DNA of 31,811 bases from a virus. Position numbers and translations under genes: made by a program. The stretch lies in UHGV virus genome UHGV-0116366. One strand, 5' to 3'. Under the pieces are notes generated by a model. The model was not told where the DNA came from. It saw only the letters and a list, made by a program, of their open reading frames with translations, and made no database searches. Below, piece after piece: positions 200 through 18,165 of this stretch. Within the stretch, counting starts at the first letter, position 1; every line of letters starts with the position of its first letter.

Positions 200-1036
200 A
201 TGATTCGTCTTTTAATGCTGATTAGTGCAGTATTTGGGATCGGCTATGGTTACGCGATAACGCATGATGTTTGGCCTTTTGAAGGTATGGATGCGAACCA
301 GCGAGGAGTTTTTGGCGACTCTTGGGGCGCTTTTACCTCAATCTTTTCTGCTATGGGGTTTTGTGGGGTTTTATGGACGATAAAGCTGCAGATGGATGCA
401 ACAAAAAAAATAGAGGATGATTTTAGGAAAAGGGAAGAAGCTGAAAAAATTAGGGATTTTGAGAACTCCTTCTTTAATATGTTGAGTATATTGCAAACAT
501 TAATTAAAGATATGAGGGTTGAAGGCTCTTCCGGGAAGACTTTGGCAGAAGGGCGTCATGTTTTTCTTTATTTTTTCAGACGATTCAAAAAAGAAGTTAG
601 ACAAAAAAATGGAATGTTATTAGATTATGACTCGAGTGATGAATCTGAAATTAAAAAAGCATCATCGAGAATGTCTAATGAATATAGGTTTTATTTCAGG
701 AATAGAGCTCAAAATTTATCTCATTACTTCAGATATATCTATAATATGTTTAAAATAATCCACGAATCTGATTTGTCTAACGTTAACAAGAAAAAATACG
801 CAAACATTTTACGCGCTCAACTTTCTAATTATGAGTTGCTAATGCTGTTTTATAATGCCAATTTCGTTCATGGTCAGAAATTTAAAGTATATATGAGCTT
901 GTATGCGATTCTGGATAATCTGCCAGCAGAGAAGCTTATAAATAAAAAACATGTTGCATTCTATGATAAAGAAGCGTGGGGTGATAATCTTGATGCATTA
1001 CAGTATCACCCCAAGTTTTTTGATTATGCAGATTAA
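200..1036 (+). CDS. AT-rich moron encoding a membrane-anchored protein; possible abortive-infection/exclusion (Abi-like) protein
   Basis: 278-aa ORF with hydrophobic N-terminal segments (LLMLISAVFGIGYGYAI, FTSIFSAMGFCGVLWTI) and a Lys/Asn/Tyr/Phe-rich soluble domain. Codon composition is much more AT-rich than flanking phage genes. It lies between the attachment-site gene (icd) and int, where e14 carries lit. Functional call is from memory of Abi-like families and is not verified. Confidence 0.55.
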   Translation: MIRLLMLISAVFGIGYGYAITHDVWPFEGMDANQRGVFGDSWGAFTSIFSAMGFCGVLWTIKLQMDATKKIEDDFRKREEAEKIRDFENSFFNMLSILQTLIKDMRVEGSSGKTLAEGRHVFLYFFRRFKKEVRQKNGMLLDYDSSDESEIKKASSRMSNEYRFYFRNRAQNLSHYFRYIYNMFKIIHESDLSNVNKKKYANILRAQLSNYELLMLFYNANFVHGQKFKVYMSLYAILDNLPAEKLINKKHVAFYDKEAWGDNLDALQYHPKFFDYAD

Positions 1037-3051: not shown

Positions 3052-3678
3052 TTAAAGCTCGTACTGAACGCCTTTGACAACGCCGATGATCAGGCAATTA
3101 CCGTTAATTGAAATGTTTGGATAGCGTGGATTTAAGGGAACTAAGAACTTTTGAGGCCCATCGATGACAAGTTTTTTTACAGTAGCCTCGTTTGTCCCAT
3201 CAAGCCTGGCTACGACTATCTTTCCATGAAGTGGCTCTGCATCTGGATCTACTATGACTGTTGCCCCTTCAGGGATTGTCGGGAGGCCATTAGGGTTTGT
3301 CATCGAATCACCTTTAACCTCCAATGCAAAGGAGCTATCCCCTATGCGGAGTGATGTCTCTATCCACTTATCTACTTCGCTGAAAACTTCTGCTGCTTTA
3401 CATTCTGTAAACTGTCCAGCCTGAACCCAGGATATCACCGGAATCCTTCGCATCTTGGTTATCAGATTGCCTTCAAATTCAGTGCCATAAAGTATGTAAT
3501 CAATTGATGTGTTGAAATACTTTGCAAGTTTCGCAAGTGACTCGCCTCCTGGCACATTAACGTCTTTTTCCCAATACCCAACCGCCACATCACTAACACC
3601 GCAGAACTTACCCAGTTCTTTCTGCGAGGTTTTGGTTATGCGCCTGAGAGCTTTGATGCGCTGACCGACAGTTTCCAT
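3052..3678 (-). CDS. cI: CI-type phage repressor (N-terminal HTH_XRE, C-terminal S24 LexA-like peptidase)
   Basis: N-terminus QRIKALRRITKTSQKELGKFCGVSDVAVGYWEKDVNVP (HTH). C-terminal domain has GDSM (Ser nucleophile) and VKK (Lys) as in LexA/CI autopeptidases. Divergent from cro. Confidence 0.9.
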   Translation of the reverse strand: METVGQRIKALRRITKTSQKELGKFCGVSDVAVGYWEKDVNVPGGESLAKLAKYFNTSIDYILYGTEFEGNLITKMRRIPVISWVQAGQFTECKAAEVFSEVDKWIETSLRIGDSSFALEVKGDSMTNPNGLPTIPEGATVIVDPDAEPLHGKIVVARLDGTNEATVKKLVIDGPQKFLVPLNPRYPNISINGNCLIIGVVKGVQYEL

Positions 3679-4922: not shown

Positions 4923-5769
4923 ATTAACCGGCTACGTATGGGATGGTTGCGCGGCGTCGGGCATGAAGTTGTCTAGTGTCGCGATCATGGCTCGCCTTGC
5001 TGATTTCAGCAGCGATGAGGGGGTGTGCTGGCCGTCTATTGAAACTATTGCTCGCCAGCTTGGCGCAGGGCCGAGCACTATCAGAACGGCAATCGCTAAG
5101 CTTGAAAAAGATGGCTGGCTCACGCGTACACAGCGCCGTAATGGTAACCGTAATGCGTCGAACGTTTACCGCCTGAATGTGGCGAAACTTCAGGCTGCCG
5201 CATTTTCTCAACTGTCAGATTCTGACACGTCAAAATCTGACGCATCAAAATTTGACACCTCAAAAACTGACCCGTCGAAATCTGGCAAAATCGGCGGTTT
5301 TGACCCGTCAGAATCTGGCGGGGATCCGTCAGTAAAATCAACACAAGATCCACAAGTAACTTCAAAACCCTCTTGTCCGGTTGCGGCGCAACCAGACCCT
5401 GAAGTTGTGATTACCGACCAGGCGATTTTGGTTCTGACCCATTTGAACCAGATCAGCGGATCCCGGTATCAGAAATCCAAAACATCCCTGGAGAATATCC
5501 GCGCCCGACTGCGTGAGGGATACAGCGTTGCAGACCTGCAACTGGTTATCGACCTGAAGCATGAGCACTGGCACGAGAACGACGAGCAATACCAGTACAT
5601 GCGGCCGGAAACGCTTTTTGGTCCGAAGAAATTCGAGAGCTATCTGCAAAGCGCTACCCGCTGGGATCAGAAGGGACGGCCTAAACGCGCTGATTGGGGT
5701 GCGAAAAAGCGCGATGTGATGGCTTTTGGTCCGGTTGATACAACGATTCCTGCGGGGTTCAGAGGATGA
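4912..5769 (+). CDS. phage replication initiator (N-terminal HTH, C-terminal conserved phage replication domain)
   Basis: N-terminal winged-HTH-like region (SIETIARQLGAGPSTIRTAIAKLEKDGWLTR). C-terminal block (LENIRARLREGYSVADLQLVIDLKHEHWHENDEQYQYMRPETLFGPKKFESYLQ) is typical of lambdoid replication-organiser proteins. Iterons lie inside the gene. Confidence 0.8.
   Translation: MSTKLTGYVWDGCAASGMKLSSVAIMARLADFSSDEGVCWPSIETIARQLGAGPSTIRTAIAKLEKDGWLTRTQRRNGNRNASNVYRLNVAKLQAAAFSQLSDSDTSKSDASKFDTSKTDPSKSGKIGGFDPSESGGDPSVKSTQDPQVTSKPSCPVAAQPDPEVVITDQAILVLTHLNQISGSRYQKSKTSLENIRARLREGYSVADLQLVIDLKHEHWHENDEQYQYMRPETLFGPKKFESYLQSATRWDQKGRPKRADWGAKKRDVMAFGPVDTTIPAGFRG
5215..5335. repeat. origin-like iteron array inside the replication gene (about six copies of GTCARAWTCTGAC-like 12-13-mers)
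   Basis: tcagattctgac / gtcaaaatctgac / atcaaaatttgac / ctcaaaaactgac / gtcgaaatctggc / gtcagaatctggc are readable in tandem; they encode the low-complexity SDSDTSKSDASKFDTSKTDPSKSG linker. Confidence 0.6.
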
Positions 5770-6647
5770 CGTTAAACAAATATTGCCAGGCGCTGGCGGC
5801 ATTACGTAGCCAACCAGCCCACGAATTGAAAGAAGTTGGCGATCAGTGGCGGACGCCGGATCTGCTTTTTTGGGGGATCAACGCGCTATTTGGTCCATTA
5901 GTTCTGGACTTGTTTGCAGACGACGACAACGCGAAGTGCCCGGCATGGTACACCGCCGAAGATAACGCGCTGACACAGAACTGGTCTGAACGTCTGGATG
6001 AACTGGGCGGAGCGGCGTTTGCCAACCCTCCATATAGCCGCTCGCAGTATCACGACAGGCAGGCGATCACGGGTATGACACACATCATGAATCACACCAT
6101 GGACATGCGTGAAAGAGGTGGTCGCTATATTTACCTGGTGAAGTCTGCCACAAGTGAAACATGGTGGCCGGAAGATGCCGATCACATCATGTTTATTCGT
6201 GGTCGTATTGGGTTCGATCTGCCTGTGTGGTTTGTACCTGCTGACGAAAAACAGAAACCCACCAGCGCGTTTTTTGCCGGTGCCATAGCTGTATTCGATA
6301 AGTCATGGCGTGGTGAGCGGTTCAGCTATATCAACCGCACTGAGTTGGAGGCAAAAGGTCGGGCATTTATGGCGCTGGCTCAATTCGCTGTTGGTAAAGA
6401 GCAAACAATTGCAACGCTGGCAGCCCAGGAACCAGCAGCACCACCAAAAACTGAGTCACGAATCTGGCCTCTCGAAGTTGGTCTGGTGTTTAACCAAGTG
6501 GAAGGCGCTGATGTATTGAGCGAGGCCCAGCAGAACAAACTGAAAGCCAACATCAATCAACTCTGGCTGGAGCGGACGGCCACCAGCGAAATTATCGCAA
6601 TTGCGCGTGGCCTTGTTGGCAGCATGCAGGGGGTAACCCATGCGTGA
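5766..6647 (+). CDS. DNA N6-adenine methyltransferase (phage Dam-like) with C-terminal extension
   Basis: FANPPYS motif (NPPY catalytic motif of amino-MTases) in the N-terminal ~170 aa; C-terminal ~120 aa of unknown function. Confidence 0.75.
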   Translation: MTLNKYCQALAALRSQPAHELKEVGDQWRTPDLLFWGINALFGPLVLDLFADDDNAKCPAWYTAEDNALTQNWSERLDELGGAAFANPPYSRSQYHDRQAITGMTHIMNHTMDMRERGGRYIYLVKSATSETWWPEDADHIMFIRGRIGFDLPVWFVPADEKQKPTSAFFAGAIAVFDKSWRGERFSYINRTELEAKGRAFMALAQFAVGKEQTIATLAAQEPAAPPKTESRIWPLEVGLVFNQVEGADVLSEAQQNKLKANINQLWLERTATSEIIAIARGLVGSMQGVTHA

Positions 6648-8637
6648 GATTATCGTTGATAACTTTGCTGGTGGCGGTGGCGCATCAACGGGTATTGAAC
6701 TGGCAATCGGGCGCAGCGTGGATATTGCGATCAACCACGACGAAAACGCCATTGCGATGCACAAGACGAACCACCCGGACACACTGCATTATTGTGAATC
6801 CGTATTTGACGTGGATCCGGTAGCCGCCACCGGAGGTAATCCTGTCGGACTGGCATGGTTTAGCCCGGACTGCCGACACTTCTCGAAGGCAAAAGGCGCA
6901 AAGCCTGTGAAAAAAGAGATACGCGGTCTGGCCTGGATTGTTCTGCGTTGGGCACTGGCGAAGCGACCGCGCGTGATGATGCTGGAGAACGTGGAAGAGT
7001 TCAAAACGTGGGGACCGTTAATTGACATCCCGCCTAAACCTGATTTGCCGGAAGCCCTTTTGGCGGATTTTATTGGCCCGGTTTACCCTGGAAATAGTCG
7101 CCCAGACCCTGCCCGCACTGGAGAAACATTCAATGCATTTGTCGGCATGCTGTCCACTGGCATTCCTGCTGATCACCCGGCACTGGCTGAGGTTTGTGAG
7201 TTTCTGTCTATTGTAAGAGGTAGCGAGCAGGCGAAAAAGCTGGTGGATGGGCTCGGATATGATGTTGATTATCGTGAACTGCGCGCGTGTGATTACGGCG
7301 CGCCGACGATCCGCAAACGCTTCTTCATGGTTATGCGCTGCGATGGCTGCCCAATCCAGTGGCCTACTGTTACCCATGGGGATCCTAAGTCTCTGGAGGT
7401 GCAGAGCGGCAGGCTGATGCCATGGCGTACCGCTGCGGAATGTATCGACTGGAATGTTCCGGCCCTGTCCATCTTCGACCGCAAAAAACCGCTGGCGGAG
7501 AACACTTTGAAGCGGATCGCGCGCGGCATACAGCGCTTTGTTATCGAAAGTGCGTCGCCGTTTATCGTGAAGTGCAACCACACCACGACCAAAGGAAAAT
7601 ACGACTGTTTCCGTGGGCAGGAGTTGAGTGAGCCGCTGCAGACCATTACGAAAACCCATGGCTACGCGTTAGCCGTGCCACACCTGACAAAATTCCGCAC
7701 TGGCGCAACCGGGCAGCCCGTTACCGAGCCTGTCCCGACGGTAACCGCTGGCACATCAAAACGTCCAGGTGGGAATGGGCATGCACTCGGGATTGTTGAG
7801 GCTGCACTGACACCATTCCTGGCGGGTAATGGTGGTAGTGAATACCAGGCTAAACCACGCCCGCTGGATAAACCTGCTCATACCATTCTGAAGCAATCCC
7901 GCGCCTGTCTTGTTGCGCCAGTGATAGCCCGCCAGTTTGGGGCCAGCGTCGGCCATCGGGCAGACGAACCGAGCGCAACCATCACCGCTGGCGGTGGCGG
8001 TAAATCTCAACTGGTAACGCCTACGCTGATCCAGATGGGTTATGGCGAACGTCCAGGACAAGAACCGCGTGTGCTGCGACTGGATAACCCGCTGGGGACC
8101 GTTACTGCAGGTGGAAATAAATTCGCGACGGTGAGCGCGTTCCTGGCAAAACACTACGGCGGTAACTATACGGGGCCGGGTGTCAGTATGGATGAACCCG
8201 CGCACTCAGTGACCACTGTCGACCATCATGCAGTAGTTGCCTCTCATCTGGTGAAACTGCGAGGAACATGCCGCGACGGGCAGTGCCTTGATGTGCCCAT
8301 GCCAACAATCACCGCTGGTGGCCAACACGTGGGTGAGGTACGCACATTTCTCGAGACGTATTGCGGGGAAAGTGACGATGAATGGCTGGTAACGATCGAT
8401 GGGGTTAAATACCAGATCGTTGATATCGGAATGCGCATGTTGCAGCCGCATGAACTCTACAAAGCGCAGGGCTTCCCCGATGGATACGTTATTGATCAGG
8501 ACTACCGTGGAAATCGCTATGCAAAAGATAAGCAGGTAGCCCGCTGCGGTAATGCGGTACCACCACCATTCGCCAGGGCGCTGGTGGAGGCAAATCTTCC
8601 GGAACTGTGTGCAGTGCAACAGCAGGAGGTGGCATGA
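6640..8637 (+). CDS. DNA (cytosine-5) methyltransferase with unusually long variable region, possibly multispecific
   Basis: Motif I FAGGGG, PC-like motif FSPDCRHFS, motif VI MMLENV, motif VIII YGAPTIRKRFFMV, C-terminal CGNAVPPP. About 360 aa separate motif VIII from motif IX/X and contain four copies of a (T/V)(I/V)TAG(G/T) motif. Confidence 0.85.
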   Translation: MREIIVDNFAGGGGASTGIELAIGRSVDIAINHDENAIAMHKTNHPDTLHYCESVFDVDPVAATGGNPVGLAWFSPDCRHFSKAKGAKPVKKEIRGLAWIVLRWALAKRPRVMMLENVEEFKTWGPLIDIPPKPDLPEALLADFIGPVYPGNSRPDPARTGETFNAFVGMLSTGIPADHPALAEVCEFLSIVRGSEQAKKLVDGLGYDVDYRELRACDYGAPTIRKRFFMVMRCDGCPIQWPTVTHGDPKSLEVQSGRLMPWRTAAECIDWNVPALSIFDRKKPLAENTLKRIARGIQRFVIESASPFIVKCNHTTTKGKYDCFRGQELSEPLQTITKTHGYALAVPHLTKFRTGATGQPVTEPVPTVTAGTSKRPGGNGHALGIVEAALTPFLAGNGGSEYQAKPRPLDKPAHTILKQSRACLVAPVIARQFGASVGHRADEPSATITAGGGGKSQLVTPTLIQMGYGERPGQEPRVLRLDNPLGTVTAGGNKFATVSAFLAKHYGGNYTGPGVSMDEPAHSVTTVDHHAVVASHLVKLRGTCRDGQCLDVPMPTITAGGQHVGEVRTFLETYCGESDDEWLVTIDGVKYQIVDIGMRMLQPHELYKAQGFPDGYVIDQDYRGNRYAKDKQVARCGNAVPPPFARALVEANLPELCAVQQQEVA

Positions 8638-10726: not shown

Positions 10727-11089
10727 ATGCGTGATATTCAGATGGTTTTAGAACGCTGGGGGGGCTGGGCATCAGCTGATAATTCTGGCGTTGACTATTC
10801 CCATATTGCCGCTGGCTTCAAGGGACTTTTACCGCAGACAAGCAAAACCAGGTTGTCATGTACAGATGATGATGCGCTTATCATTGAAAGTTGCCTAGCA
10901 CGACTGAAAAGCCGAAAGCCATATGAGCATTCGCTTCTTGTCGCTCACTACCTTTACGGTATCTCGAAGAGGAAGATAGCAAAAGCGCGAAAGAAGGATG
11001 AGAAACTGATACGCATCGAGATACAGATGGCTGAGGGGTTTATAGATGGTTGTCTCTCAATGCTTGATGTTCGTCTAGATATGGACTAA
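10727..11089 (+). CDS. late-gene antiterminator Q (phage 82 / QuuD type)
   Basis: 120-aa protein beginning MRDIQMVLERWGGWA, characteristic of the small Q antiterminator family; GGAG RBS; located upstream of the lysis genes. Confidence 0.7.
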   Translation: MRDIQMVLERWGGWASADNSGVDYSHIAAGFKGLLPQTSKTRLSCTDDDALIIESCLARLKSRKPYEHSLLVAHYLYGISKRKIAKARKKDEKLIRIEIQMAEGFIDGCLSMLDVRLDMD

Positions 11090-11137
11090 TTATTTTTGAT
11101 AGAGGCATTGTTGTTAGTTAATGTCTCTATCTTTACT

Positions 11138-11383
11138 CTAACTAAGGCCAAGGTATGCCAATACTACAGCTGTAATAATGCCAATAACAATACTTTTTAT
11201 GTTTTCTAAAATGAAATTAATAATCCTGCGCCATATAGTAATTGGATTTTCTTTCTTATATATCAATTTGTTAGTCGGCGCTCCAGACTTGTTTTTTTCA
11301 GCGAAAATATCATCTGCACCATCAATGTCAGCAAGTGTGCTTGAAGATGTTTCATTTTCATTAAGGTGTATTTTTTTTTGCAT
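11138..11383 (-). CDS. hypothetical membrane-anchored small protein (AT-rich moron)
   Basis: 81-aa ORF antisense to the late operon with a C-terminal hydrophobic helix (IVIGIITAVVLAYLGL); strongly AT-rich codons. Confidence 0.45.
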   Translation of the reverse strand: MQKKIHLNENETSSSTLADIDGADDIFAEKNKSGAPTNKLIYKKENPITIWRRIINFILENIKSIVIGIITAVVLAYLGLS

Positions 11384-11412
11384 TCCTTATGACAAACATT
11401 GGTCTATTATAT

Positions 11413-11703
11413 TTATCCATACAATACACTCCTTATAAATATACTGCATTGTGAAGGTTTGAAATTTGGTATGTTTTTTGTTACTCGTCGCATGCTGTGT
11501 GCATTAAATTTATCAATGTTTTTATTGGCCTTTATGGTTTTGCAATTGTCAATTATATAAGGTGTCTCACTACTGTTGGTTGTATTTCCATTTAAAGTTA
11601 TGCTTTCAACATTATTTGCGATGAGAAATGGAGTATTCAGGTTTGAGGTATTATTATTAAAAACTACGTGACCACAGTTTTGTACGTAAAATATTGCATG
11701 CAT
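11413..11703 (-). CDS. hypothetical Asn/Thr-rich protein (AT-rich moron)
   Basis: 96-aa ORF upstream of and co-oriented with 11138-11383. A sigma70-like promoter on the minus strand (TTCTCA - 17 nt - TATACT) lies just upstream at about 11720-11750. Weak RBS. Confidence 0.35.
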   Translation of the reverse strand: MHAIFYVQNCGHVVFNNNTSNLNTPFLIANNVESITLNGNTTNSSETPYIIDNCKTIKANKNIDKFNAHSMRRVTKNIPNFKPSQCSIFIRSVLYG

Positions 11704-11812
11704 ATTAGTAACTCACGAAAGCATTAGTATACAAAGCAAGCATAACATTGAGAACACTCTACAGATTTTTAAGGAAAAAACAATCACGCGGTCCGCATTA
11801 CTTGGTGTATTG

Positions 11813-11829
11813 TGTTAAGAGTGGTCACT
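11813..11829. repeat. copy 1 of 17-bp motif TGTTAAGAGTGGTCACT
   Basis: 16/17 identical to 15348-15364 (TGTTAAGAGTGGTTACT); both lie just upstream of rightward late-gene blocks after antisense moron insertions. Confidence 0.5.
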
Positions 11830-11855
11830 TAGACGCGAACTTAAATATTTCAGAA

Positions 11856-11881
11856 CCTCGCCAATCGGCGGGGTTTTTTTC
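11856..11881 (+). terminator. rho-independent terminator (tR'-like) upstream of the lysis cassette
   Basis: cctcgccaatcggcgggg hairpin followed by tttttttc; lies downstream of Q and upstream of the holin, as expected for a Q-modifiable terminator. Confidence 0.5.
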
Positions 11882-11989
11882 ATTTCAGGCCCAGGTTAAA
11901 AACTGCAGATTAACCGTGATCACATGAGCTTGCGGCCTGAACCCTTTCCCCTCGTTTCTGAGAGGATTCACAGCAATTGAGGGGGACAG

Positions 11990-12376
11990 ATGTCCGAACC
12001 AATAACCGGCACAGGTTTAGCTGGTGGCGCTTTAACTGGGGCGAGTGTTTACGGACTGTTAACCGGAACAGATTATGGTGTGGTGTTTGGCGCGTTTGCC
12101 GGGGCTGTATTTTACATTGCAACGGCTGCGGACCTTAGCGCAGCACGTCGGCTGGCGTATTTTGTCGTGTCCTACATTGCCGGGATCATCTGCTCAGGGC
12201 TGGTTGGTTCAAAGCTGGCTGACTGGACTGGTTACAGTGATAAGCCTCTGGACGCTATCGGAGCCGTAATCGTTTCTGCTTTAGCTGTCAAAATCCTGAC
12301 GTTCCTGAATAACCAGGATGTCGGCTCGCTGGTGGCGCTGATAACGCGCCGGGGAGGTTCAGGTGGTACTAAATGA
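11990..12376 (+). CDS. holin-like membrane protein
   Basis: 128-aa Gly/Ala-rich protein with several hydrophobic helices, first gene of the lysis cassette. Confidence 0.55.
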   Translation: MSEPITGTGLAGGALTGASVYGLLTGTDYGVVFGAFAGAVFYIATAADLSAARRLAYFVVSYIAGIICSGLVGSKLADWTGYSDKPLDAIGAVIVSALAVKILTFLNNQDVGSLVALITRRGGSGGTK

Positions 12377-12644
12377 CCCATCGGCAACAATCAACGCGCT
12401 GCTTTGCGCTGGGGTAGTGTTGACCCTGATGTTTTACCGTCGTGGTGATTCCCGACATCGACCATGGGTGTCTCGCTTAGCGTGGCTGCTTACGGTCATC
12501 TACAGCGCTGTACCACTGGCCTATCTGTGCGGTATCTACCCTTATTCATCGTGGGCCACTATCGGGGCCAACATTATTTTCCTGTCTGTGCTGGTCTCCG
12601 TCAGAGGCAATGTGGCGCGGCTTATTGATGCTGTTTACAAATAA
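12363..12644 (+). CDS. holin/antiholin-like membrane protein
   Basis: 93-aa protein with 2-3 TM segments and charged C-terminus; GTG start preceded by GGGGAGG; overlaps the upstream gene. Confidence 0.5.
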   Translation: MVLNDPSATINALLCAGVVLTLMFYRRGDSRHRPWVSRLAWLLTVIYSAVPLAYLCGIYPYSSWATIGANIIFLSVLVSVRGNVARLIDAVYK

Positions 12645-12799
12645 AAAAGCGAGTCGCAACGACATCGCTACAACCCGCAAAGTAGATAGAATCATTAGGA
12701 TTTATCTTAAGTCTCATTGTGACTTAAATTAAATTGAATTTCATCATCTTAGGTGAATTCTAATCCCTACCATTAATAGTGGTTTAATCCGGTACACAT

Positions 12800-13414
12800 A
12801 TGAACCAATCACAATTTCAGCAGGCGGCTGGTATCAGCGCCAGGCTTTCTGCACGCTGGTTTCCGCACATTGATGCGGCAATGAAAGAGTTTGGTATTAC
12901 AGCAGTTAATGATCAGGCCATGTTCATTGCGCAAGTCGGGCATGAGTCTGCTGGCTTTACCTCGCTGGCAGAAAGTTTTAACTACTCGGTTGAAGGGCTG
13001 AAGAAAACCTTCGGTAAGCGCCTGACGCCGTATCAGTGTGAAATGCTGGGGCGTGTTGATGGTAAGCAGGTGGCCCACCAGCCGCAAATAGCCAATCTGG
13101 TTTACGGTGACCGCATGGGGAATAACAGCCAGGGGGACGGCTGGAAATATCGCGGTCGTGGCCTGCTTCAAATCACCGGCCGTGAGAACTACACCAAATG
13201 CGGTGCGGCACTGAAACTTGACCTTGTCAGTACGCCAGAATTGCTAACGCAGGAACGACATGCGGCCCGTTCGGCGGCGTGGTACTTCACGTTACGCGGT
13301 TGCCTGATGTATTCGGGTGACGTGGAACGTGTAACGCAGATTATTAACGGCGGGCAGAACGGCATTAAAGACCGCCGTGAACGTTACGCCAAAGCAAAAG
13401 CCGCACTGGTATGA
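12800..13414 (+). CDS. endolysin, glycoside hydrolase family 19 (chitinase-like)
   Basis: MFIAQVGHESAGF...YRGRGLLQITGRENY...INGG is the GH19 phage endolysin signature. Confidence 0.85.
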   Translation: MNQSQFQQAAGISARLSARWFPHIDAAMKEFGITAVNDQAMFIAQVGHESAGFTSLAESFNYSVEGLKKTFGKRLTPYQCEMLGRVDGKQVAHQPQIANLVYGDRMGNNSQGDGWKYRGRGLLQITGRENYTKCGAALKLDLVSTPELLTQERHAARSAAWYFTLRGCLMYSGDVERVTQIINGGQNGIKDRRERYAKAKAALV

Positions 13415-13421
13415 GGTCACT

Positions 13422-13691
13422 ATGGGACTTGAAATGATTATCGGCCTGGTTGTTGCTGTGCTGGCTGCAATTGCAGGTGCTTTTGGTCTGGGTAAATCAC
13501 GCGGTACTAACATCGCTGAGACAAAAGCGAACCAGCAACGCACTGAAGAACGTGCAGCAGCTACTGAGGCCGTTGCAGAACGCCGGGTAGAAACAACAAA
13601 AGGAGCCAGGGATGTACAGCAGACTGTTAATCATCTTCCTGATGACGATGTTGACCGCGAGTTGCGCGAAAACTTTACCCGCAAAACCTGA
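13422..13691 (+). CDS. i-spanin (Rz-like)
   Basis: N-terminal TM (MGLEMIIGLVVAVLAAIAGAF) followed by a charged, coiled-coil-like periplasmic domain, immediately after the endolysin. Confidence 0.7.
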   Translation: MGLEMIIGLVVAVLAAIAGAFGLGKSRGTNIAETKANQQRTEERAAATEAVAERRVETTKGARDVQQTVNHLPDDDVDRELRENFTRKT

Positions 13692-13860
13692 AGTAACGGA
13701 CACGGCCTGTGACTGGGTAAGCATCATCTACCTCACTGAGCACGATATTGCTGTGCTGGATAAGCAGACTAAGAAAGACATTCTAGCGCATAACAAAGCA
13801 TGGCAGTCAAATTGTGAAAATGCGACTGTGAGCCTTAATCCTATAATGACCACGAAATAG
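13612..13860 (+). CDS. o-spanin (Rz1-like lipoprotein), overlapping Rz out of frame
   Basis: Signal peptide with lipobox LTASC; starts inside Rz in another frame and extends beyond it. Confidence 0.65.
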   Translation: MYSRLLIIFLMTMLTASCAKTLPAKPEVTDTACDWVSIIYLTEHDIAVLDKQTKKDILAHNKAWQSNCENATVSLNPIMTTK

Positions 13861-13899
13861 AAAATTGCTATGTTGTATCTTTCAAATGAGGGGAGCAGC

Positions 13900-14136
13900 A
13901 TGAGCCAAGTTACATTAACTATTAGTGAACTTTATGAAATTGCAGAGCAGTATTATGGAAACGAACTCTACCGTATAGAAGTTTGCAACATTGGAATTAG
14001 GTTCGTGTGTTTGGATCGTAGCAAGGGCAATGAAGAGTACTCTGCATTTTTCCAGACTCCTTTAAAAAATCTGTCTATAAACTCACTTAGAGGCTTTCTC
14101 GATGCGGAAACACAGGAGGAAAGCATAAGCAATTGA
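13900..14136 (+). CDS. hypothetical small protein (AT-rich moron)
   Basis: Start at 13900 preferred (GAGGGGAG RBS); product MSQVTLTISELYEIAEQYYGNELYRIEV... has no recognisable family. Confidence 0.45.
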   Translation: MSQVTLTISELYEIAEQYYGNELYRIEVCNIGIRFVCLDRSKGNEEYSAFFQTPLKNLSINSLRGFLDAETQEESISN

Positions 14137-14296
14137 AGGGCAGGTCACCTTTGATGGTGTCATTTGCTTGAATTGTTTTAAAAATGCACAAGCCCGTTAC
14201 AGTGTGAATGTGGTATGCATTACTGCGGGTATTTGCTGAGTGCCTGTGTTAATGTTGCTGCTGTAATAATGAGATGGTTTGTAAAAAAGGAAGGGA

Positions 14297-14611
14297 TTGA
14301 AAATGATTTTCCAAAATATTCAGACGTACTACATTACCAGCGATAAACATAAGGTTATTCCGCGATATGTCCGATATGACGTAATTAAATTGGATGATAA
14401 TGCTTACATAGTAAATGTTATTGATGACCAACAAAGAGGTATCTCGCCCCCTTATAGTCTTGTTATGTTAGATAAAATTACAATTACTAAAGCTGAGTAT
14501 CTTGATAAGTACCAAATTGGTTCCTTTACTGGGGTTAGAACGCAAAGTCCTCCAACCTTTGAAGGATATATTACAGAACATCTTCAAGAGCATCGTAATC
14601 AGTTAGATTAA
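14297..14611 (+). CDS. hypothetical protein (AT-rich moron)
   Basis: 104-aa ORF with AAGGAAGGG RBS; followed by a terminator hairpin. Confidence 0.5.
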   Translation: MKMIFQNIQTYYITSDKHKVIPRYVRYDVIKLDDNAYIVNVIDDQQRGISPPYSLVMLDKITITKAEYLDKYQIGSFTGVRTQSPPTFEGYITEHLQEHRNQLD

Positions 14612-14624
14612 GTTCCGTATCAAC

Positions 14625-14668
14625 ATAAGCCACTGTTTTTCTATGGTGGCTTATGTGTGTTTTTATTT
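14625..14668 (+). terminator. terminator hairpin between convergent moron genes
   Basis: ataagccac ... gtggcttat inverted repeat followed by gtgtgttttta. Confidence 0.5.
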
Positions 14669-14678
14669 AGCTGTGCAT

Positions 14679-15047
14679 TCAAAGAAATATTTTATTGATT
14701 AATGCTTCTATAGATGGCCAGATGGATAAGGTATTTGCACCGATGCTAGTAAGTTTTTCAAGAAGGTCAACTTTTGACTCTTTCGTCGGCTCAATTTCAC
14801 TAATGGTAGCAAGTAATCGGTCATAACCTTTTTGACCTAACTCTTTTTCGCATACACTTTTGTTACTCTTGATTAAAAGTTGAGCTTGATAAATTAGTTC
14901 AAGCGTCTCCCTATTGCCGATCAGATTCTCATTAACTTTTGTATTAGGAGAATTCACTACTTCAATTGCTGTATCTATAACATCAACAGTGTTGTTATTC
15001 ACTTCGCAACCAATTGAGTCTTTAATAACAATACCTTTGAGAGCCAT
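14679..15047 (-). CDS. hypothetical protein, possible C-terminal part of a split HEAT-repeat protein
   Basis: ATG at 15047 preceded by GAGGT RBS; lies 9-20 nt downstream of the HEAT-repeat ORF in a different frame. Confidence 0.45.
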   Translation of the reverse strand: MALKGIVIKDSIGCEVNNNTVDVIDTAIEVVNSPNTKVNENLIGNRETLELIYQAQLLIKSNKSVCEKELGQKGYDRLLATISEIEPTKESKVDLLEKLTSIGANTLSIWPSIEALINKIFL

Positions 15048-15067
15048 GGCATACCTCACTAAAGATT

Positions 15068-15274
15068 TTATTTTCGACGATATAAACGACCAAGAGCAGT
15101 GACCGCAGCGACTTGAACATCAGAATTTGAGTCCTTCGTCATAGTTAACAACCGCGAAGCAATTTCACTAGTTGCTGTGGCACCCTCTCCGAGCGCTAAA
15201 GCAGCGGCAGTTTTAACTTTTACGTCACTATCTTTTGTCATGATTAACAAACGATTAGCAATTTCACTTAGCAT
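15068..15274 (-). CDS. small HEAT-like repeat protein
   Basis: Two ~30-aa internal repeats (EIANRLLIMTKDSDVKVKTAAALALGEG / EIASRLLTMTKDSNSDVQVAAVTALGRL) matching the D-x-x-V-(R/K)-x-x-A-A-x-A-L-G pattern of PBS-lyase HEAT-like repeats; strong GAGGAGGG RBS. Confidence 0.55.
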   Translation of the reverse strand: MLSEIANRLLIMTKDSDVKVKTAAALALGEGATATSEIASRLLTMTKDSNSDVQVAAVTALGRLYRRK

Positions 15275-15347
15275 GATCCCTCCTCATATAAATATCTCTA
15301 CACCATATGGCAACATATTTTGGTTAGCAATACATTGTTTTCAAACC

Positions 15348-15364
15348 TGTTAAGAGTGGTTACT
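15348..15364. repeat. copy 2 of 17-bp motif TGTTAAGAGTGGTTACT
   Basis: See 11813-11829. Confidence 0.5.
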
Positions 15365-15458
15365 GAGGAACTACCAAATTTACTTCGTACTCGAAGTGTC
15401 TTTAACTAATGTTTACGCGCATTAGACAATGTGCCACCGTAAAAGTGAGAGGACTTCA

Positions 15459-15809
15459 ATGCCTGAAAGAACACCTAAAGCCTGCCGTGTTCGAGGCTGC
15501 CGAGGCACGACTACTGATCCATCAGGCTATTGTGAAAGCCATAAAAGTGAAGGGTGGAAATCCTACAAACCGGGGAAATCCCGGCATCAGCGTGGTTATG
15601 GGACAAAGTGGGAAGTCATACGCGCTCGCATACTGAAGCGTGACAAAGCTCTATGCCAGAACCATCTACGTGAGGGAGTTGTGAAACAGGCTTCATGTGT
15701 GGACCACATCAAAGCGAAGGCCCACGGCGGTACTGATGAAGACAGCAACCTTGAAAGCCTGTGCTGGTCGTGTCATGCAGCGAAGACCGCGCGTGAGCGG
15801 CTCAAGTGA
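15459..15809 (+). CDS. HNH endonuclease (packaging-associated)
   Basis: Cys-rich zinc-finger/HNH pattern (CRVRGC...CESH...H...CW.CH) in the usual position upstream of terS in HK97-like cos phages; the ORF is open from 15429. Confidence 0.8.
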   Translation: MPERTPKACRVRGCRGTTTDPSGYCESHKSEGWKSYKPGKSRHQRGYGTKWEVIRARILKRDKALCQNHLREGVVKQASCVDHIKAKAHGGTDEDSNLESLCWSCHAAKTARERLK

Positions 15810-15934
15810 GAATTGATATCATCATCAGCCAGGGGAGGGGGGGGCAAATCTCTACGACCGCGCGCCTTCTGGACTGCCCGCCTCCTCGAATTTTTTTACC
15901 CGCGAAAAATCAAATTTAACCAGGAGTATCGCTT
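15810..15934. other. candidate cos / packaging-initiation region
   Basis: Intergenic region between HNH and terS containing the G-tract ggggaggggggggc and GC-rich cgcgcgcc / cccgcctcc elements; position-based inference only. Confidence 0.3.
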
Positions 15935-16435
15935 ATGGCTGGAACGGCGGGGCGTTCCGGGCGTCGGCCTAAGCCAACGGCGCGCAAGGAGCTGGCTGGA
16001 AACCCCGGCAAGCGAGCCCTGAATAAAGATGAACCGGTATTCACGCCGATTAAAGGAGTGGAGCCACCAGAATGGTTTTCCGATGTAGACGATGGCCTGC
16101 CGCTGGCAACGATCATGTGGGAGCTGACTACAAAGGAGTTATGCGGTCAGGGACTCTTATGCGTCACTGATCTGGCCGTACTGGAGCGCTGGTGTGTCGC
16201 ATATGAATTCTGGCGAAGGGCTGTGAAAAATATCGCCGTGGAAGGTCTTTCAGTTACTGGGGCCATGGGCGGTAAAATAAAAAACCCCGAACTCACCGCC
16301 AAAAAAGAGCAGGAATCGGAGATGAGTTCTACCGGTTCAATGCTTGGCCTTGACCCAAGCAGCCGTCAGCGGCTCGTTGGCCTGGCCGGAAAGAAACAAG
16401 CCTCTAACCCATTCCTTAAGATGATTAGCTCATGA
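15935..16435 (+). CDS. terminase small subunit (P27 family)
   Basis: 166-aa protein [30 protein letters not shown]... typical of P27-family TerS; immediately upstream of terL. Confidence 0.85.
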
Positions 16436-18165
16436 GCCGGAAATCGTACCCCAACGTTAATGCCGCGAATCAGTACGCCCGTAACGTAGTGCGGGGAAAG
16501 ATTCCGGCATGTCAGTTCGTCATTCAGGCATGCCAGCGTCATATCGATGACATGGTCGCAGAGAAAAGTAAGAAGTTCCGGTACCGCTTCGATAAAGATG
16601 CAGCGGAGAAGGCCGCAAAGTTTATTCAACTGCTGCCGCACACAAAGGGAGAGTGGGCGTTCAAAAGAATGCCGATAACCCTGGAGCCGTGGCAACTTTT
16701 TATTGTGTGCAGCGCCTTTGGCTGGGTACAGAAGGGAACGAAGCTTCGCCGTTTTCGGGAGGTCTACACCGAGATTCCCCGTAAGAACGGCAAATCTGCG
16801 ATTTCAGCTGGTGTGGCGCTCTACTGCTTCACCTGTGATAACGAGTTCGGTGCTGAAGTTTACTCTGGCGCGACAACGGAAAAACAGGCGTGGGAAGTAT
16901 TCCGTCCCGCTCGCTTGATGTGCAAGCGTACGCCGCTGCTGGTGGAAGCGTTCGGCATTGAGGTAAACGCCTCTAACCTGAACCGTCCCGAGGACGGCGC
17001 ACGCTTTGAGCCGCTGATCGGCAATCCCGGCGACGGTGCTTCACCGCATTGTGCGATTGTCGACGAATATCACGAACACCCTACTGATTCGCTGTACACC
17101 ACTATGCTGACGGGCATGGGCGCGCGCCGACAACCGCTGATGTGGGCGATCACCACAGCAGGTTACAACATCGAAGGACCGTGCTACGACAAACGACGTG
17201 AAGTGATTGAAATGCTGAATGGCACGGTACCCAACGACGAGTTGTTTGGCGTGATCTATACGGTTGATGAAGGTGACGACTGGACTGATCCAAAGGTGCT
17301 TGAGAAAGCCAATCCGAATATGGGTGTCTCTGTCTACCGCGACTTCCTGTTGAGCCAACAGCAACGTGCTGTGAACAATGCCCGTCAGGCTGGTGTTTTT
17401 AAAACGAAGCATCTCAACATCTGGGTTGCTGCTCGGGCCGCATTCTTCAACCTGGTTTCTTGGCAGAACTGTGAAGACAAGACGCTTACCCTCGAACAAT
17501 TCGAAGGTCAGCCATGCGTTCTGGCTTTTGACCTGGCGCGAAAGCTGGACATGAACAGTATGGCGCGGTTGTTCACCAGGGAGATTGACGGTAAGACACA
17601 TTATTACAGTGTTGCGCCTCGTTTCTGGGTTCCTTATGACACGGTTTTCAGTGTTGAAAAAAACGAAGACCGTCGCACGGCTGAGCGCTTCCAGAAGTGG
17701 GTTGAAATGGGGTTGCTCACCGTGACTGATGGGGCAGAGGTTGATTACCGTTACATCCTCGAAGAGGCAAAAGCGGCAAATAAACTGAACCCTGTAAGCG
17801 AGTCGCCGATTGACCCATTTGGCGCAACGGGACTGTCTCACGATCTTGCTGATGAAAGCCTTAACCCGATAACTATTGTTCAGAACTACACCAACATGTC
17901 GGACCCGATGAAAGAGCTGGAGGCCGCAATTGAGTCTGGGCGTTTTCATCACGACGGAAATCCGATTATGGGCTGGTGTATTAGCAACGTCGTCGGAAAG
18001 TATCTCCCGGGCAACGACGATGTGGTTAAACCCATCAAAGAGCAGAACGAAAACAAAATCGATGGTGCGGTTGCACTGATTATGTCGATTGGTCGTTCAA
18101 TGCTTTACGAAAAGGTGGACTCTATCTCCGAGCGTATCGAATCCCGCGGCATCCGCTCACTTTAA
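16432..18165 (+). CDS. terminase large subunit
   Basis: 577-aa protein with ATPase and nuclease regions ([14 protein letters not shown]..., AIVDEYHEH...) in HK97-like arrangement. Confidence 0.9.

What the first reader, a model, noticed from the sequence alone, without database searches (positions are those of the whole stretch)
13870..15400. AT-rich moron island between lysis and packaging genes with convergent small genes, including a HEAT-repeat protein
About 1.5 kb of low-GC DNA carries two rightward ORFs (13900-14136, 14297-14611), a terminator hairpin, and two leftward ORFs with strong RBSs (15068-15274, 14679-15047). The 68-aa leftward product is two tandem PBS-lyase-type HEAT-like repeats; the downstream ORF may be the other half of a split HEAT protein. 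The island interrupts the otherwise contiguous late operon and has no recognisable structural function, so it is a prime candidate for an uncharacterised accessory system (defence, anti-defence or lysogenic conversion).
Basis: partly seen in the sequence, partly recalled or inferred. Interest (0 to 1): 0.7.

Follow-up and report, generated by a model that had tools for sequence, protein, structure and literature searches.

The report
Stacked accessory genes at prophage lysis–packaging hotspot
The AT-rich island is real and sits in a known variable slot of lambda-like prophages, but it is a stack of four independently mobile small genes of unknown function, including a tiny two-repeat HEAT protein, not one coherent system or a split gene.

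Summary
Window 13815-15458 has GC 0.34-0.42 against about 0.52 in the flanks. It carries two rightward ORFs (A, B), a strong hairpin, and two leftward ORFs (D, a 68-aa HEAT protein, then C, 122 aa) with good ribosome-binding sites.

The island lies between the spanins and the HNH-TerS-TerL packaging genes of a Q-antiterminated, HK97-like enterobacterial prophage. Homology to related prophages breaks at exactly these borders.

D is a genuine two-repeat HEAT protein (Pfam, alphaRep matches). Its homologues are complete at 69 aa. They always sit antisense next to HNH and often stand alone.

C is not the other half of a HEAT protein. It belongs to an unannotated ~125-aa family (two beta coils plus four helices, motif SxGANTLSIWP). 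That family occupies the same antisense slot alone in E. coli, Salmonella and Enterobacter prophages.

A's homologues recur after lysis cassettes in three other phage backbones. In the loci examined, all four genes co-occur only in this island type.

The slot and layout match lambda bor and the phi80 tai/ati defence and counter-defence pair, but there is no homology to Tai or Ati. The most likely reading is a moron stack whose leftward unit is expressed in the lysogen, possibly for phage-phage conflict. The function is untested. Interest is moderate.

The parts
13815..15458 (.). Variable low-GC cassette (the island) between the o-spanin 3' end and the HNH start codon.
   Evidence: blastn homology to related prophages stops at about 13800-13815 and resumes at about 15469-15471. 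GC is 0.34-0.42. The cassette is 99.5-100% identical in six other prophages whose spanin (84-100%) and TerS (77-78%) differ.
13900..14136 (+). ORF A, 78 aa, acidic (pI 4.4), same strand as the late operon. No known family. Conserved C-terminal motif GFLDAE(TQE).
   Evidence: Homologues at 46-48% identity occur in four viral contigs, and in L028 (the only one whose neighbours were read) it lies directly after holin-lysozyme-Rz and before the terminase. A 36% homologue, unannotated, lies between the spanin/Ant genes and the packaging genes of Cronobacter phage ENT47670. No Pfam, PHROG or PDB match.
14303..14611 (+). ORF B, 102 aa (alternative TTG start at 14297), same strand as the late operon. 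PHROG family of unknown function.
   Evidence: phrog_31348, E = 5e-26, full length. Nothing in Pfam, PADLOC or NCBIfam. The viral-contig 'hits' were spurious and lie inside a terminase gene.
14623..14656 (.). Shared hairpin between the convergent gene pairs. It is an intrinsic terminator for the + strand and a 3' stem-loop without a U-tract for the - strand.
   Evidence: It is 100% conserved in L001-L007.
14679..15047 (-). ORF C, 122 aa (pI 4.9). Member of an unannotated ~125-aa family: N-terminal beta strands with a 22-residue period (two beta-helix-like coils), then four helices, with the C-terminal motif S-x-G-A-N-T-L-[ST]-[ILF]-W-P.
15054..15058 (-). Ribosome-binding site of C (GAGG, 6 nt before the ATG). 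The D stop and the C start are only 20 nt apart, so the two are read as one operon.
   Evidence: Sequence reading.
15068..15274 (-). ORF D, 68 aa, basic (pI 9.7). Two tandem HEAT-like repeats of the PBS-lyase/alphaRep type, with a conserved LYRR(K/R) tail.
   Evidence: Pfam, PDB alphaRep matches, internal repeat. Homologues P0001-P0005 are about 50% identical. The gene is always antisense beside HNH. pN/pS is about 0.25.
15278..15285 (-). Ribosome-binding site of D (GAGGAGGG).
   Evidence: Sequence reading.
15317..15344 (-). Candidate sigma-70 promoter of the leftward D-C unit (TTGAAA-16-CAAAAT). Consensus match only.
   Evidence: The region as a whole has no more promoter-like sites than shuffles, so this is weak. 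The D-HNH spacer is 100% identical in L001-L007. The type-2 HEAT genes in L008 and L013 carry a clear extended -10 (TGTTATAAT) and their own hairpin.
13612..13860 (+). Left flank: o-spanin (lipobox LTASC), overlapping the i-spanin at 13377-13691. This is the end of the lysis cassette.
15459..15809 (+). Right flank: HNH endonuclease, followed by TerS (15935-16435) and TerL (16432-18165). HNH belongs to the same recently shared block as the island.
   Evidence: Pfam HNH, E = 1.7e-10. Gene tables. HNH is 99.1-99.7% identical while TerS is 77-78%.
10727..11089 (+). Antiterminator Q, which makes late transcription read through the island's terminator.
   Evidence: Pfam Phage_antitermQ, E = 1.6e-53. 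The read-through itself is inferred from lambda Q biology.

Best explanation
The island is the cargo of a hypervariable accessory-gene slot, a 'moron' hotspot, at the junction of the lysis cassette and the packaging genes (just upstream of HNH, with cos presumed just beyond it by analogy with HK97) of a Q-antiterminated, HK97-like enterobacterial prophage. It is not one system. It is four independently mobile small genes that have been stacked together.

The leftward pair D-C forms its own transcription unit: promoter in the D-HNH spacer, strong ribosome-binding sites, and a 3' hairpin. It runs antisense to the late operon. By analogy with lambda bor and phi80 taiEcA, it is most likely expressed from the resident prophage and damped when Q-modified polymerase reads through from pR' during lytic growth.

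A and B lie on the late strand and are most likely expressed only with the late genes. The hairpin would stop non-antiterminated transcription from either side.

The products are small, soluble and cytoplasmic, with no enzymatic motifs. D is a 7-kDa two-repeat alpha-solenoid and C is a beta-coil plus helix-bundle protein. The most likely mode of action is therefore stoichiometric binding of a host or phage protein, serving superinfection exclusion, anti-phage defence or counter-defence.

What is shown: borders, mosaicism, gene reality, family assignments, independence of the modules, and the architectural match to known cases. What is inferred: timing of expression, the binding mechanism and the role in conflict.
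For: Borders and composition.

Mosaic evidence: the same four-gene block is 99.5-100% identical in prophages with different endolysins (GH19 or GH108), spanins and TerS.

Slot occupancy in relatives:
- HEAT gene alone (L013, L014, L016).
- HEAT plus a 172-aa membrane protein (L008-L012, L017).
- C-family gene alone in E. coli, Salmonella and Enterobacter prophages.
- The tblastn co-occurrence matrix shows A, B, C and D together only in the window type.

The type-2 HEAT genes show the textbook moron anatomy: extended -10 TGTTATAAT, ribosome-binding site, gene, hairpin.

Q antiterminator is present upstream, and a strong hairpin sits in the island.

Precedents in the same slot:
- phi80 carries an antisense 204-aa gene and a sense 76-aa gene between Rz and cos.
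- He et al. [quoted passage not shown]
- HK97 has other cargo between Rz and HNH.
- An Acb2/Tad1-hairpin anti-defence gene lies next to a C homologue in L024.

The genes are under constraint (pN/pS about 0.25). I saw no obvious signal peptide or transmembrane segment when reading A-D (no predictor was run); properties are.
Against: There are no expression data.

The window's own leftward promoter is only a 9/12 consensus match, in a region with no excess of promoter-like sites. The hairpin lacks a U-tract on the - strand.

None of the four proteins matches any PADLOC defence model apart from a trivial HEAT-repeat hit at E = 0.004. None matches any protein of known function.

The whole island plus HNH moves as one >99% identical block. 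That is also what a functionally integrated module would look like.
Confidence: 0.6

Rival explanations
1. The island is one integrated defence and counter-defence module of the phi80 Tai/Ati type, a non-contiguous operon. D and/or C would be made in the lysogen and block a step of incoming phages. A and/or B would be made from the Q-dependent late transcript and neutralise D/C so that the prophage does not poison its own lytic cycle.
For: The position and layout match phi80 orf63/orf64: an antisense gene interrupting the late operon, with small sense genes next to it, upstream of packaging. All four genes travel together as a 99.5-100% identical block across mosaic backgrounds. In L028 the A homologue is again followed by an antisense small ORF.
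Against: There is no sequence similarity to TaiEcA, AtiEcA or their neighbours. C homologues in E. coli sit alone with no A- or B-like gene, D homologues sit alone in L013/L014/L016, and A homologues occur with different neighbours. A cognate counter-defence would be expected to co-vary with its target.
Confidence: 0.2
2. D and C are a two-component unit. Either they are two halves of one split HEAT protein, or they are a toxin-antitoxin or sensor-effector pair.
For: The two genes are 20 nt apart, on the same strand, and read as one operon with C's ribosome-binding site just after the D stop codon. They are always together in the window-type island.
Against: D homologues end at the same residue and stand alone. 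The C family is full length at 122-127 aa and stands alone in hundreds of contigs. hhalign of C against D gives 0.3% probability. The model of C is not a HEAT fold. There is no toxin-like domain.
Confidence: 0.07
3. The genes serve the phage's own lytic cycle. For example, D could be an accessory of HNH/terminase cos cleavage, or A/B could be lysis regulators. They would not be conflict or conversion genes.
For: D is always directly next to HNH, and the island plus HNH form one conserved block ending near the HNH-TerS spacer. A always follows a lysis cassette on the late strand.
Against: D and C are antisense to the late operon. Related phages with about 85% identical HNH-TerS-TerL carry a 50% diverged D, no D (E. 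coli L018-L021), or other cargo. HK97 and phi80 lack all four genes. Essential helpers would not show such presence/absence variation.
Confidence: 0.08
4. The ORFs are non-functional remnants in AT-rich junk DNA.
For: The ORFs are small, they have no known domains except HEAT, and the cassette is rare: it gave no megablast match in 5426 complete E. coli genomes or the phage collection.
Against: A, C and D have diverged full-length homologues, and B matches a PHROG family. Substitutions are mostly synonymous. The ribosome-binding sites are strong. Long ORFs are improbable in DNA of 35% GC.
Confidence: 0.03

Closest known systems
phi80 taiEcA/atiEcA (tail assembly inhibition and its counter-defence; He et al. 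2024, PMC11364771)
   Same: Both occupy the same slot, between Rz/Rz1 and the packaging genes/cos. Both have an antisense gene interrupting the Q-dependent late operon, flanked by small sense genes (a 'non-contiguous operon'). In both, internal terminators are annotated or found after the lysis cassette.
   Different: There is no sequence similarity. The presumed TaiEcA gene (antisense gp52 in the phi80 record) encodes 204 aa, whereas D is 68 aa (HEAT) and C is 122 aa. No phenotype is known here. The candidate partners do not co-vary.
Lambda bor and the 'moron' concept of Juhala/Hendrix (HK97/HK022 comparison). This rests on established knowledge, not on a tool result.
   Same: Both are autonomous genes with their own promoter and terminator and a deviant base composition. 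Both are inserted between two genes that are adjacent in relatives, to the right of Rz, and antisense to late transcription. Presence/absence variation with sharp borders was tested and met.
   Different: Bor is a lipoprotein. I saw no obvious signal peptide or transmembrane segment when reading D and C (no predictor was run). Here several morons are stacked, and two of them are fused into one operon.
PBS-lyase-type HEAT-like repeat proteins (Pfam HEAT_2/HEAT_EZ; E. coli YibA; NblB; designed alphaRep binders)
   Same: The repeat consensus is shared (LxxxLkDxdxxVRxxAAxALGxig). Pfam scores are above threshold, and alphaRep matches reach E = 1e-17.
   Different: D has only two repeats (68 aa) and no capping repeats, whereas the natural full-length families it weakly matches have NCBIfam profiles of 214-898 positions. 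It also has a conserved basic LYRR(K/R) tail, and it is prophage-borne and restricted to Citrobacter/Enterobacter-type prophages.
Right-handed parallel beta-helix (PbH1) repeats
   Same: The N-terminal 44 residues of C show the 22-residue repeat pattern. They give weak NosD/Beta_helix/para_beta_helix hits (E about 0.02) and multi-stretch hits to long repeat proteins. The AF2 strands have a 22-residue period.
   Different: The scores are below all family thresholds. There are only two coils, and they are fused to a four-helix domain with no structural relative.

Membership tests
HEAT repeat (Pfam PF02985 / PF13646 / PF13513), for protein D | Sequence match to the repeat profiles above the curated thresholds. 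| tested here: met
   HEAT scores 33.8 bits (cut-off 23.5), HEAT_2 31.7 (27.7), and HEAT_EZ 30.5 (27.0).
HEAT repeat (PBS-lyase/alphaRep subtype), for protein D | Tandem helix-turn-helix units of about 31-33 residues with the AAxALG signature. | tested here: met
   There are two units, 33 residues apart and 64% identical to each other. D aligns in register with alphaRep repeats. No 3D model of D was made.
HEAT repeat proteins | An extended solenoid of several repeats (usually three or more) forming a binding surface. | tested here: not met
   D has only two repeats in 68 aa, and its homologues are also 69 aa.
Moron (autonomous accessory gene in a phage operon) | Present in some phages and absent in close relatives, with sharp borders between genes that are otherwise adjacent. 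| tested here: met
   Borders lie at about 13815 and about 15470. Relatives carry alternative cargo in the slot.
Moron | Base composition different from the surrounding phage genes. | tested here: met
   GC is 0.34-0.42 against 0.50-0.57.
Moron | Own promoter and own terminator. | tested here: inconclusive
   The hairpin is strong. The window's promoter is only a 9/12 consensus match. The type-2 HEAT genes have a clear extended -10 and a hairpin.
Moron / lysogenic conversion gene | Expressed from the repressed prophage. | not testable with these tools
   This needs transcript or protein data from a lysogen.
Tai/Ati defence and counter-defence (phi80) | Homology to TaiEcA or AtiEcA. | tested here: not met
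   BLASTP of A-D against phi80 gp49-gp53 gave nothing better than E = 0.35.
Tai/Ati defence and counter-defence (phi80) | An antisense gene inside the Q late operon, upstream of the packaging module, with an adjacent sense gene. | tested here: met
   for the window, and for phi80.
Tai/Ati defence and counter-defence (phi80) | Blocks tail assembly of other phages; the cognate anti-protein binds it. | not testable with these tools
   This needs an experiment.
Known anti-phage defence systems (PADLOC-DB 2.0) | A match to a defence protein model. | tested here: not met
   The only hit is a repeat-level match of D to HEAT-ARM_XIII (E = 0.004, 54 of 1972 profile positions).
Two-gene system or split gene (D+C) | The two families co-occur across genomes, or an orthologue exists as one fused ORF. 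| tested here: not met
   They co-occur only in the window-type island. Ten D-only loci and eight C-only loci were seen. hhalign gives 0.3%.
Parallel beta-helix (PbH1) repeat, for the C N-terminus | A profile match above threshold. | tested here: inconclusive
   Scores are E about 0.02, below the cut-offs. The AF2 strands have a 22-residue period at pLDDT 70-85.

The most novel reading that the evidence does not exclude
The 68-aa two-HEAT-repeat protein (D) and/or the ~125-aa beta-coil/helix-bundle family (C) are new prophage-encoded immunity proteins that are made in the lysogen. They would block incoming phages purely by binding a phage or host protein. The late-strand genes A/B would act as cognate counter-defences in a Tai/Ati-like non-contiguous operon. 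D would then be one of the smallest natural HEAT-repeat binders with a defined biological target.
Probability: 0.2. Interest if true: 0.6.

Novelty: new member of a known kind. Interest (0 to 1): 0.38.

Why it matters
The junction between the lysis genes and the packaging genes of lambda-like prophages is a proven reservoir of lysogen-expressed conflict genes, such as lambda bor and phi80 tai/ati.

This work gives two uncharacterised families a precise genomic address. One is a minimal two-repeat HEAT protein. The other is a ~125-aa family that this survey found in E. coli, Salmonella, Enterobacter and Citrobacter assemblies, absent from Pfam and PHROGs. The work also shows that they are separate modules, which tells an experimenter to test them singly as well as together.

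If either protects against phages, it would add a binding-only mini-protein to the defence repertoire. If not, the island is still a clean example of moron stacking.

Tried and rejected
DNA searches:
- Megablast of the island against the phage collection found nothing. Against complete E. coli genomes, only the spanin flank matched.
- tblastn of D, C, B, P0009 and P0041 against 50,697 phage records found nothing.
- Only A hit, to Cronobacter phage ENT47670.

Family libraries:
- PADLOC and NCBIfam gave nothing useful.
- Rfam gave no RNA family in 13500-16000.

Collection scans:
- The genome-contig scan for the HEAT family found 434 pattern matches, none confirmed.
- The viral-contig scan found one locus.
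- The viral scan for B returned two hits that lie inside a terminase gene and are spurious.

Structure of C:
- The first AF2 model, from three sequences, left residues 1-44 unresolved.
- The 21-sequence model resolved them.
- afdb50 was unavailable.
- PDB profile searches for the C and A families found nothing.

Other attempts:
- Papers linking HEAT repeats to prophage morons or defence: none relevant.

Rejected ideas:
- A split HEAT gene.
- A D-C toxin-antitoxin pair.
- Homology to Tai/Ati.
- Bor-like lipoproteins.
Full report
**Observation**

The window is ENA contig ERZ651867 NODE_1118. It is a temperate enterobacterial phage genome. Its features, in order, are:
- a putative AbiC gene (200-1036);
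- integrase (1033-2229);
- CI-type repressor (3052-3678);
- replication and methylase genes;
- antiterminator Q (10727-11089);
- holins, a GH19 endolysin (12800-13414) and overlapping spanins (13377-13860);
- HNH endonuclease (15459-15809), TerS, TerL, portal, protease and HK97-type capsid;
- a contractile tail.

Between the spanins and HNH, GC falls to 0.34-0.42 from 0.50-0.57 on either side.
- A, 13900-14136 +.
- B, 14303-14611 +.
- A 14-bp hairpin at 14623-14656. It folds at -20 kcal/mol with a U-tract on the + strand (z = -4.95), and at -15.3 kcal/mol without a U-tract on the - strand.
- C, 14679-15047 -.
- D, 15068-15274 -.

C and D both have good Shine-Dalgarno sequences.

**Borders**

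I compared window 11901-16500 by blastn with 16 related prophage loci fetched through the HEAT protein and its homologues. Similarity stops at about 13800-13815, inside the 3' end of the o-spanin ORF. It resumes at about 15469-15471, at the start of HNH. The low-GC stretch is therefore exactly one exchangeable cassette.

Six other contigs carry the same four-gene cassette at 99.5-100% identity, with HNH at 99.1-99.7%. In those contigs the spanin region is 84-100% identical and TerS only 77-78%. Some have a GH108 endolysin instead of GH19. The cassette plus HNH is thus a recently shared mosaic block whose right edge lies in the HNH-TerS spacer.

**Protein D**

D (68 aa, pI 9.7) passes the Pfam thresholds for HEAT, HEAT_2 and HEAT_EZ. 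Its best PDB sequence matches are the designed alphaRep proteins (E down to 1e-17); that these derive from the PBS-type HEAT-like consensus is from my own knowledge.

It consists of two repeats 33 residues apart that are 64% identical to each other.

A search of 5.8 billion proteins found only five related clusters. All are 69 aa, about 50% identical, and from Citrobacter and Enterobacter. They share the N-terminus MLSEI, the AAALALGEG core and the C-terminal TALGRLYRR. D is therefore a complete protein, not a fragment. Between two diverged copies, pN/pS is about 0.25.

In every locus the HEAT gene sits in the same place, antisense to the late genes and directly beside HNH. What lies beyond it varies:
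- C in the window type;
- a convergent 172-aa membrane protein in L008-L012 and L017;
- nothing at all in L013, L014 and L016, where the spanin gene follows directly.

The type-2 copies have textbook moron anatomy: an extended -10 (TGTTATAAT), a ribosome-binding site, the gene, and a hairpin.

**Protein C**

C had only near-identical relatives in the word-indexed search. An exhaustive HMMER scan of 1.84 billion representatives then found 123-126-aa relatives at 25-34% identity. A profile search raised this to 20 clusters from E. coli, Salmonella, Enterobacter and Citrobacter. All share the C-terminal motif S-x-G-A-N-T-L-[ST]-[ILF]-W-P.

With a 21-sequence alignment, AlphaFold gives pLDDT 78.9:
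- Residues 1-44 form short strands with a 22-residue period, consistent with sub-threshold PbH1/NosD beta-helix hits.
- Residues 45-122 form four helices.

C has no relative by any of these searches:
- Foldseek against BFVD or the PDB.
- A PDB profile search.
- PHROGs.

Profile-profile comparison with the HEAT family gives 0.3% probability. C is therefore not the other half of a HEAT protein.

The contexts of C's relatives are the most informative result.
- In E. coli (P0041, indexed in 763 blocks of the assembly collection; its locus is in 15 of 5426 complete genomes and annotated 'hypothetical'), the C homologue stands alone. It is antisense, between the o-spanin and HNH-TerS-TerL. This is the same slot D occupies in Citrobacter phages.
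- In a contig carrying the Salmonella-type homologue P0009 (cluster members are named Salmonella enterica), it lies alone between a lysis cassette and a lambda-type terminase.
- In Enterobacter, it lies next to a late-strand gene with an Acb2/Tad1 hairpin domain, which marks a known anti-defence family.

**Proteins A and B**

A (78 aa, pI 4.4) has 46-48% identical homologues in four viral contigs. In L028, the one whose neighbours I read, it sits directly after holin-lysozyme-Rz and before the terminase, on the late strand. It also has an unannotated 36% homologue in the equivalent place in Cronobacter phage ENT47670.

B (102 aa) matches phrog_31348, a family of unknown function, over its full length (E = 5e-26). 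It matches nothing else. Its two viral-contig 'hits' are artefacts inside a terminase gene.

**Co-occurrence**

A tblastn matrix over all loci shows A, B, C and D together only in the window-type island. D homologues occur without A, B or C (ten loci). C homologues occur without A, B or D (eight loci). A homologues occur alone in four viral contigs; a further unannotated copy in ENT47670 was not checked for B, C or D. The island is therefore a stack of independent modules. D and C have been fused into one leftward operon with a 20-nt spacer.

**How it most likely works**

Shown:
- The cassette interrupts a late operon that is controlled by a Q antiterminator.
- It contains a strong intrinsic terminator in the late direction.
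- It contains a leftward gene pair with its own translation signals.

Inferred, from lambda Q biology and from the direct precedent below:
- Q-modified polymerase reads through the hairpin in lytic growth, so A and B are late genes.
- D-C is transcribed from the D-HNH spacer in the lysogen and is damped by the converging late transcription.

The window's own promoter is only a 9/12 consensus match, so this step needs an experiment.

The precedent is phi80. Between Rz/Rz1 and cos it carries an antisense 204-aa gene and a sense 76-aa gene. He et al. 2024 (PMC11364771) showed the following:
- taiEcA, the antisense gene, is expressed in the lysogen and blocks tail assembly of other phages.
- atiEcA lies in the Q-dependent late operon and counteracts it.
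- Q expression lowers Tai.

Lambda bor (from established knowledge) and other cargo in HK97 occupy the same slot. None of A-D resembles the phi80 proteins. The resemblance is therefore one of position and logic, not of family.

All four products are small, and I saw no obvious signal peptide, membrane segment or catalytic motif (by reading; no predictor was run). D is a bare repeat scaffold. A binding-based role in phage-phage or phage-host conflict is the most economical hypothesis. It remains a hypothesis.

**Rivals**

1. An integrated Tai/Ati-like module, with A/B neutralising D/C. The layout and the block-wise inheritance favour it. The independent distribution of the families weighs against it.
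2. A D-C pair or split gene. The split version is refuted. The pair version is unlikely.
3. A role in the phage's own packaging or lysis. This is unlikely given the antisense orientation and the presence/absence variation.
4. Junk ORFs. This is excluded by conservation.

**Verdict**

This is an ordinary kind of feature, a moron hotspot at the lysis-packaging junction, with uncharacterised cargo. The useful results are:
- exact borders for the cassette;
- the refutation of the split-gene idea;
- the recognition of a previously unannotated ~125-aa prophage family, and of a minimal two-repeat HEAT family, both tied to one genomic slot;
- a concrete, testable analogy with phi80 tai/ati.

Novelty is 'new member of a known kind' and interest is moderate.

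Noticed in passing
window 11090-11990: A second low-GC island (GC 0.31-0.40) lies between antiterminator Q and the holins. It has antisense ORFs at 11138-11383 (81 aa) and 11413-11703 (96 aa) with no Pfam match. In related prophages the same slot holds other cargo: an N6_N4 methylase plus a 240-aa protein (L001), a 463-aa AAA_16/ATPase_2 protein (L005), and 190-240-aa unknown proteins (L003, L008, L009, L013).
   Followed up: partly
window 200-1036: A low-GC gene (GC 0.31-0.40) beside the integrase encodes a 278-aa protein with a putAbiC abortive-infection domain (Pfam E = 2.3e-18). This looks like a third accessory or defence slot in the same prophage.
   Followed up: partly
window 15810-15934 and loci L001-L007: The island plus HNH is at least 99% identical across prophages whose TerS is only 77-78% identical. 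The mosaic breakpoint falls in the HNH-TerS spacer (88-96% identity), where cos is expected in HK97-like phages.
   Followed up: partly
L024 5395-5652 (also L023): A late-strand 85-aa gene with an Acb2/Tad1 hairpin domain (Pfam E = 2.3e-11; an anti-CBASS/anti-Thoeris sponge family) lies directly next to a C-family gene in Enterobacter prophages.
   Followed up: partly
L013 7160-7696 (also L014, L016): An antisense 178-aa DUF4145 protein plus a 64-aa ORF is inserted between the endolysin and the spanin in the prophages whose spanin-HNH slot holds only the HEAT gene.
   Followed up: no
L008 6327-6845 (also L009-L012, L017): A 172-aa protein with an N-terminal hydrophobic segment and no Pfam match lies convergent with the type-2 HEAT gene. 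It is another unknown cargo of the same slot.
   Followed up: no
L020 10005-10375: An E. coli prophage carrying the C homologue also has a TIR_2-domain protein further upstream in its early or nin region.
   Followed up: no
window 5766-8637: Two adjacent DNA methyltransferase genes lie in the early region: a Dam-like gene of 293 aa and a 665-aa DNA_methylase. Related prophages carry different combinations.
   Followed up: no
window 15068-15274: The exact 68-aa HEAT sequence is in the gene-position index (65 blocks). It is absent from the clustered protein collection and did not return itself in the homology search. Very short proteins like this one may be under-represented in that resource.
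   Followed up: no
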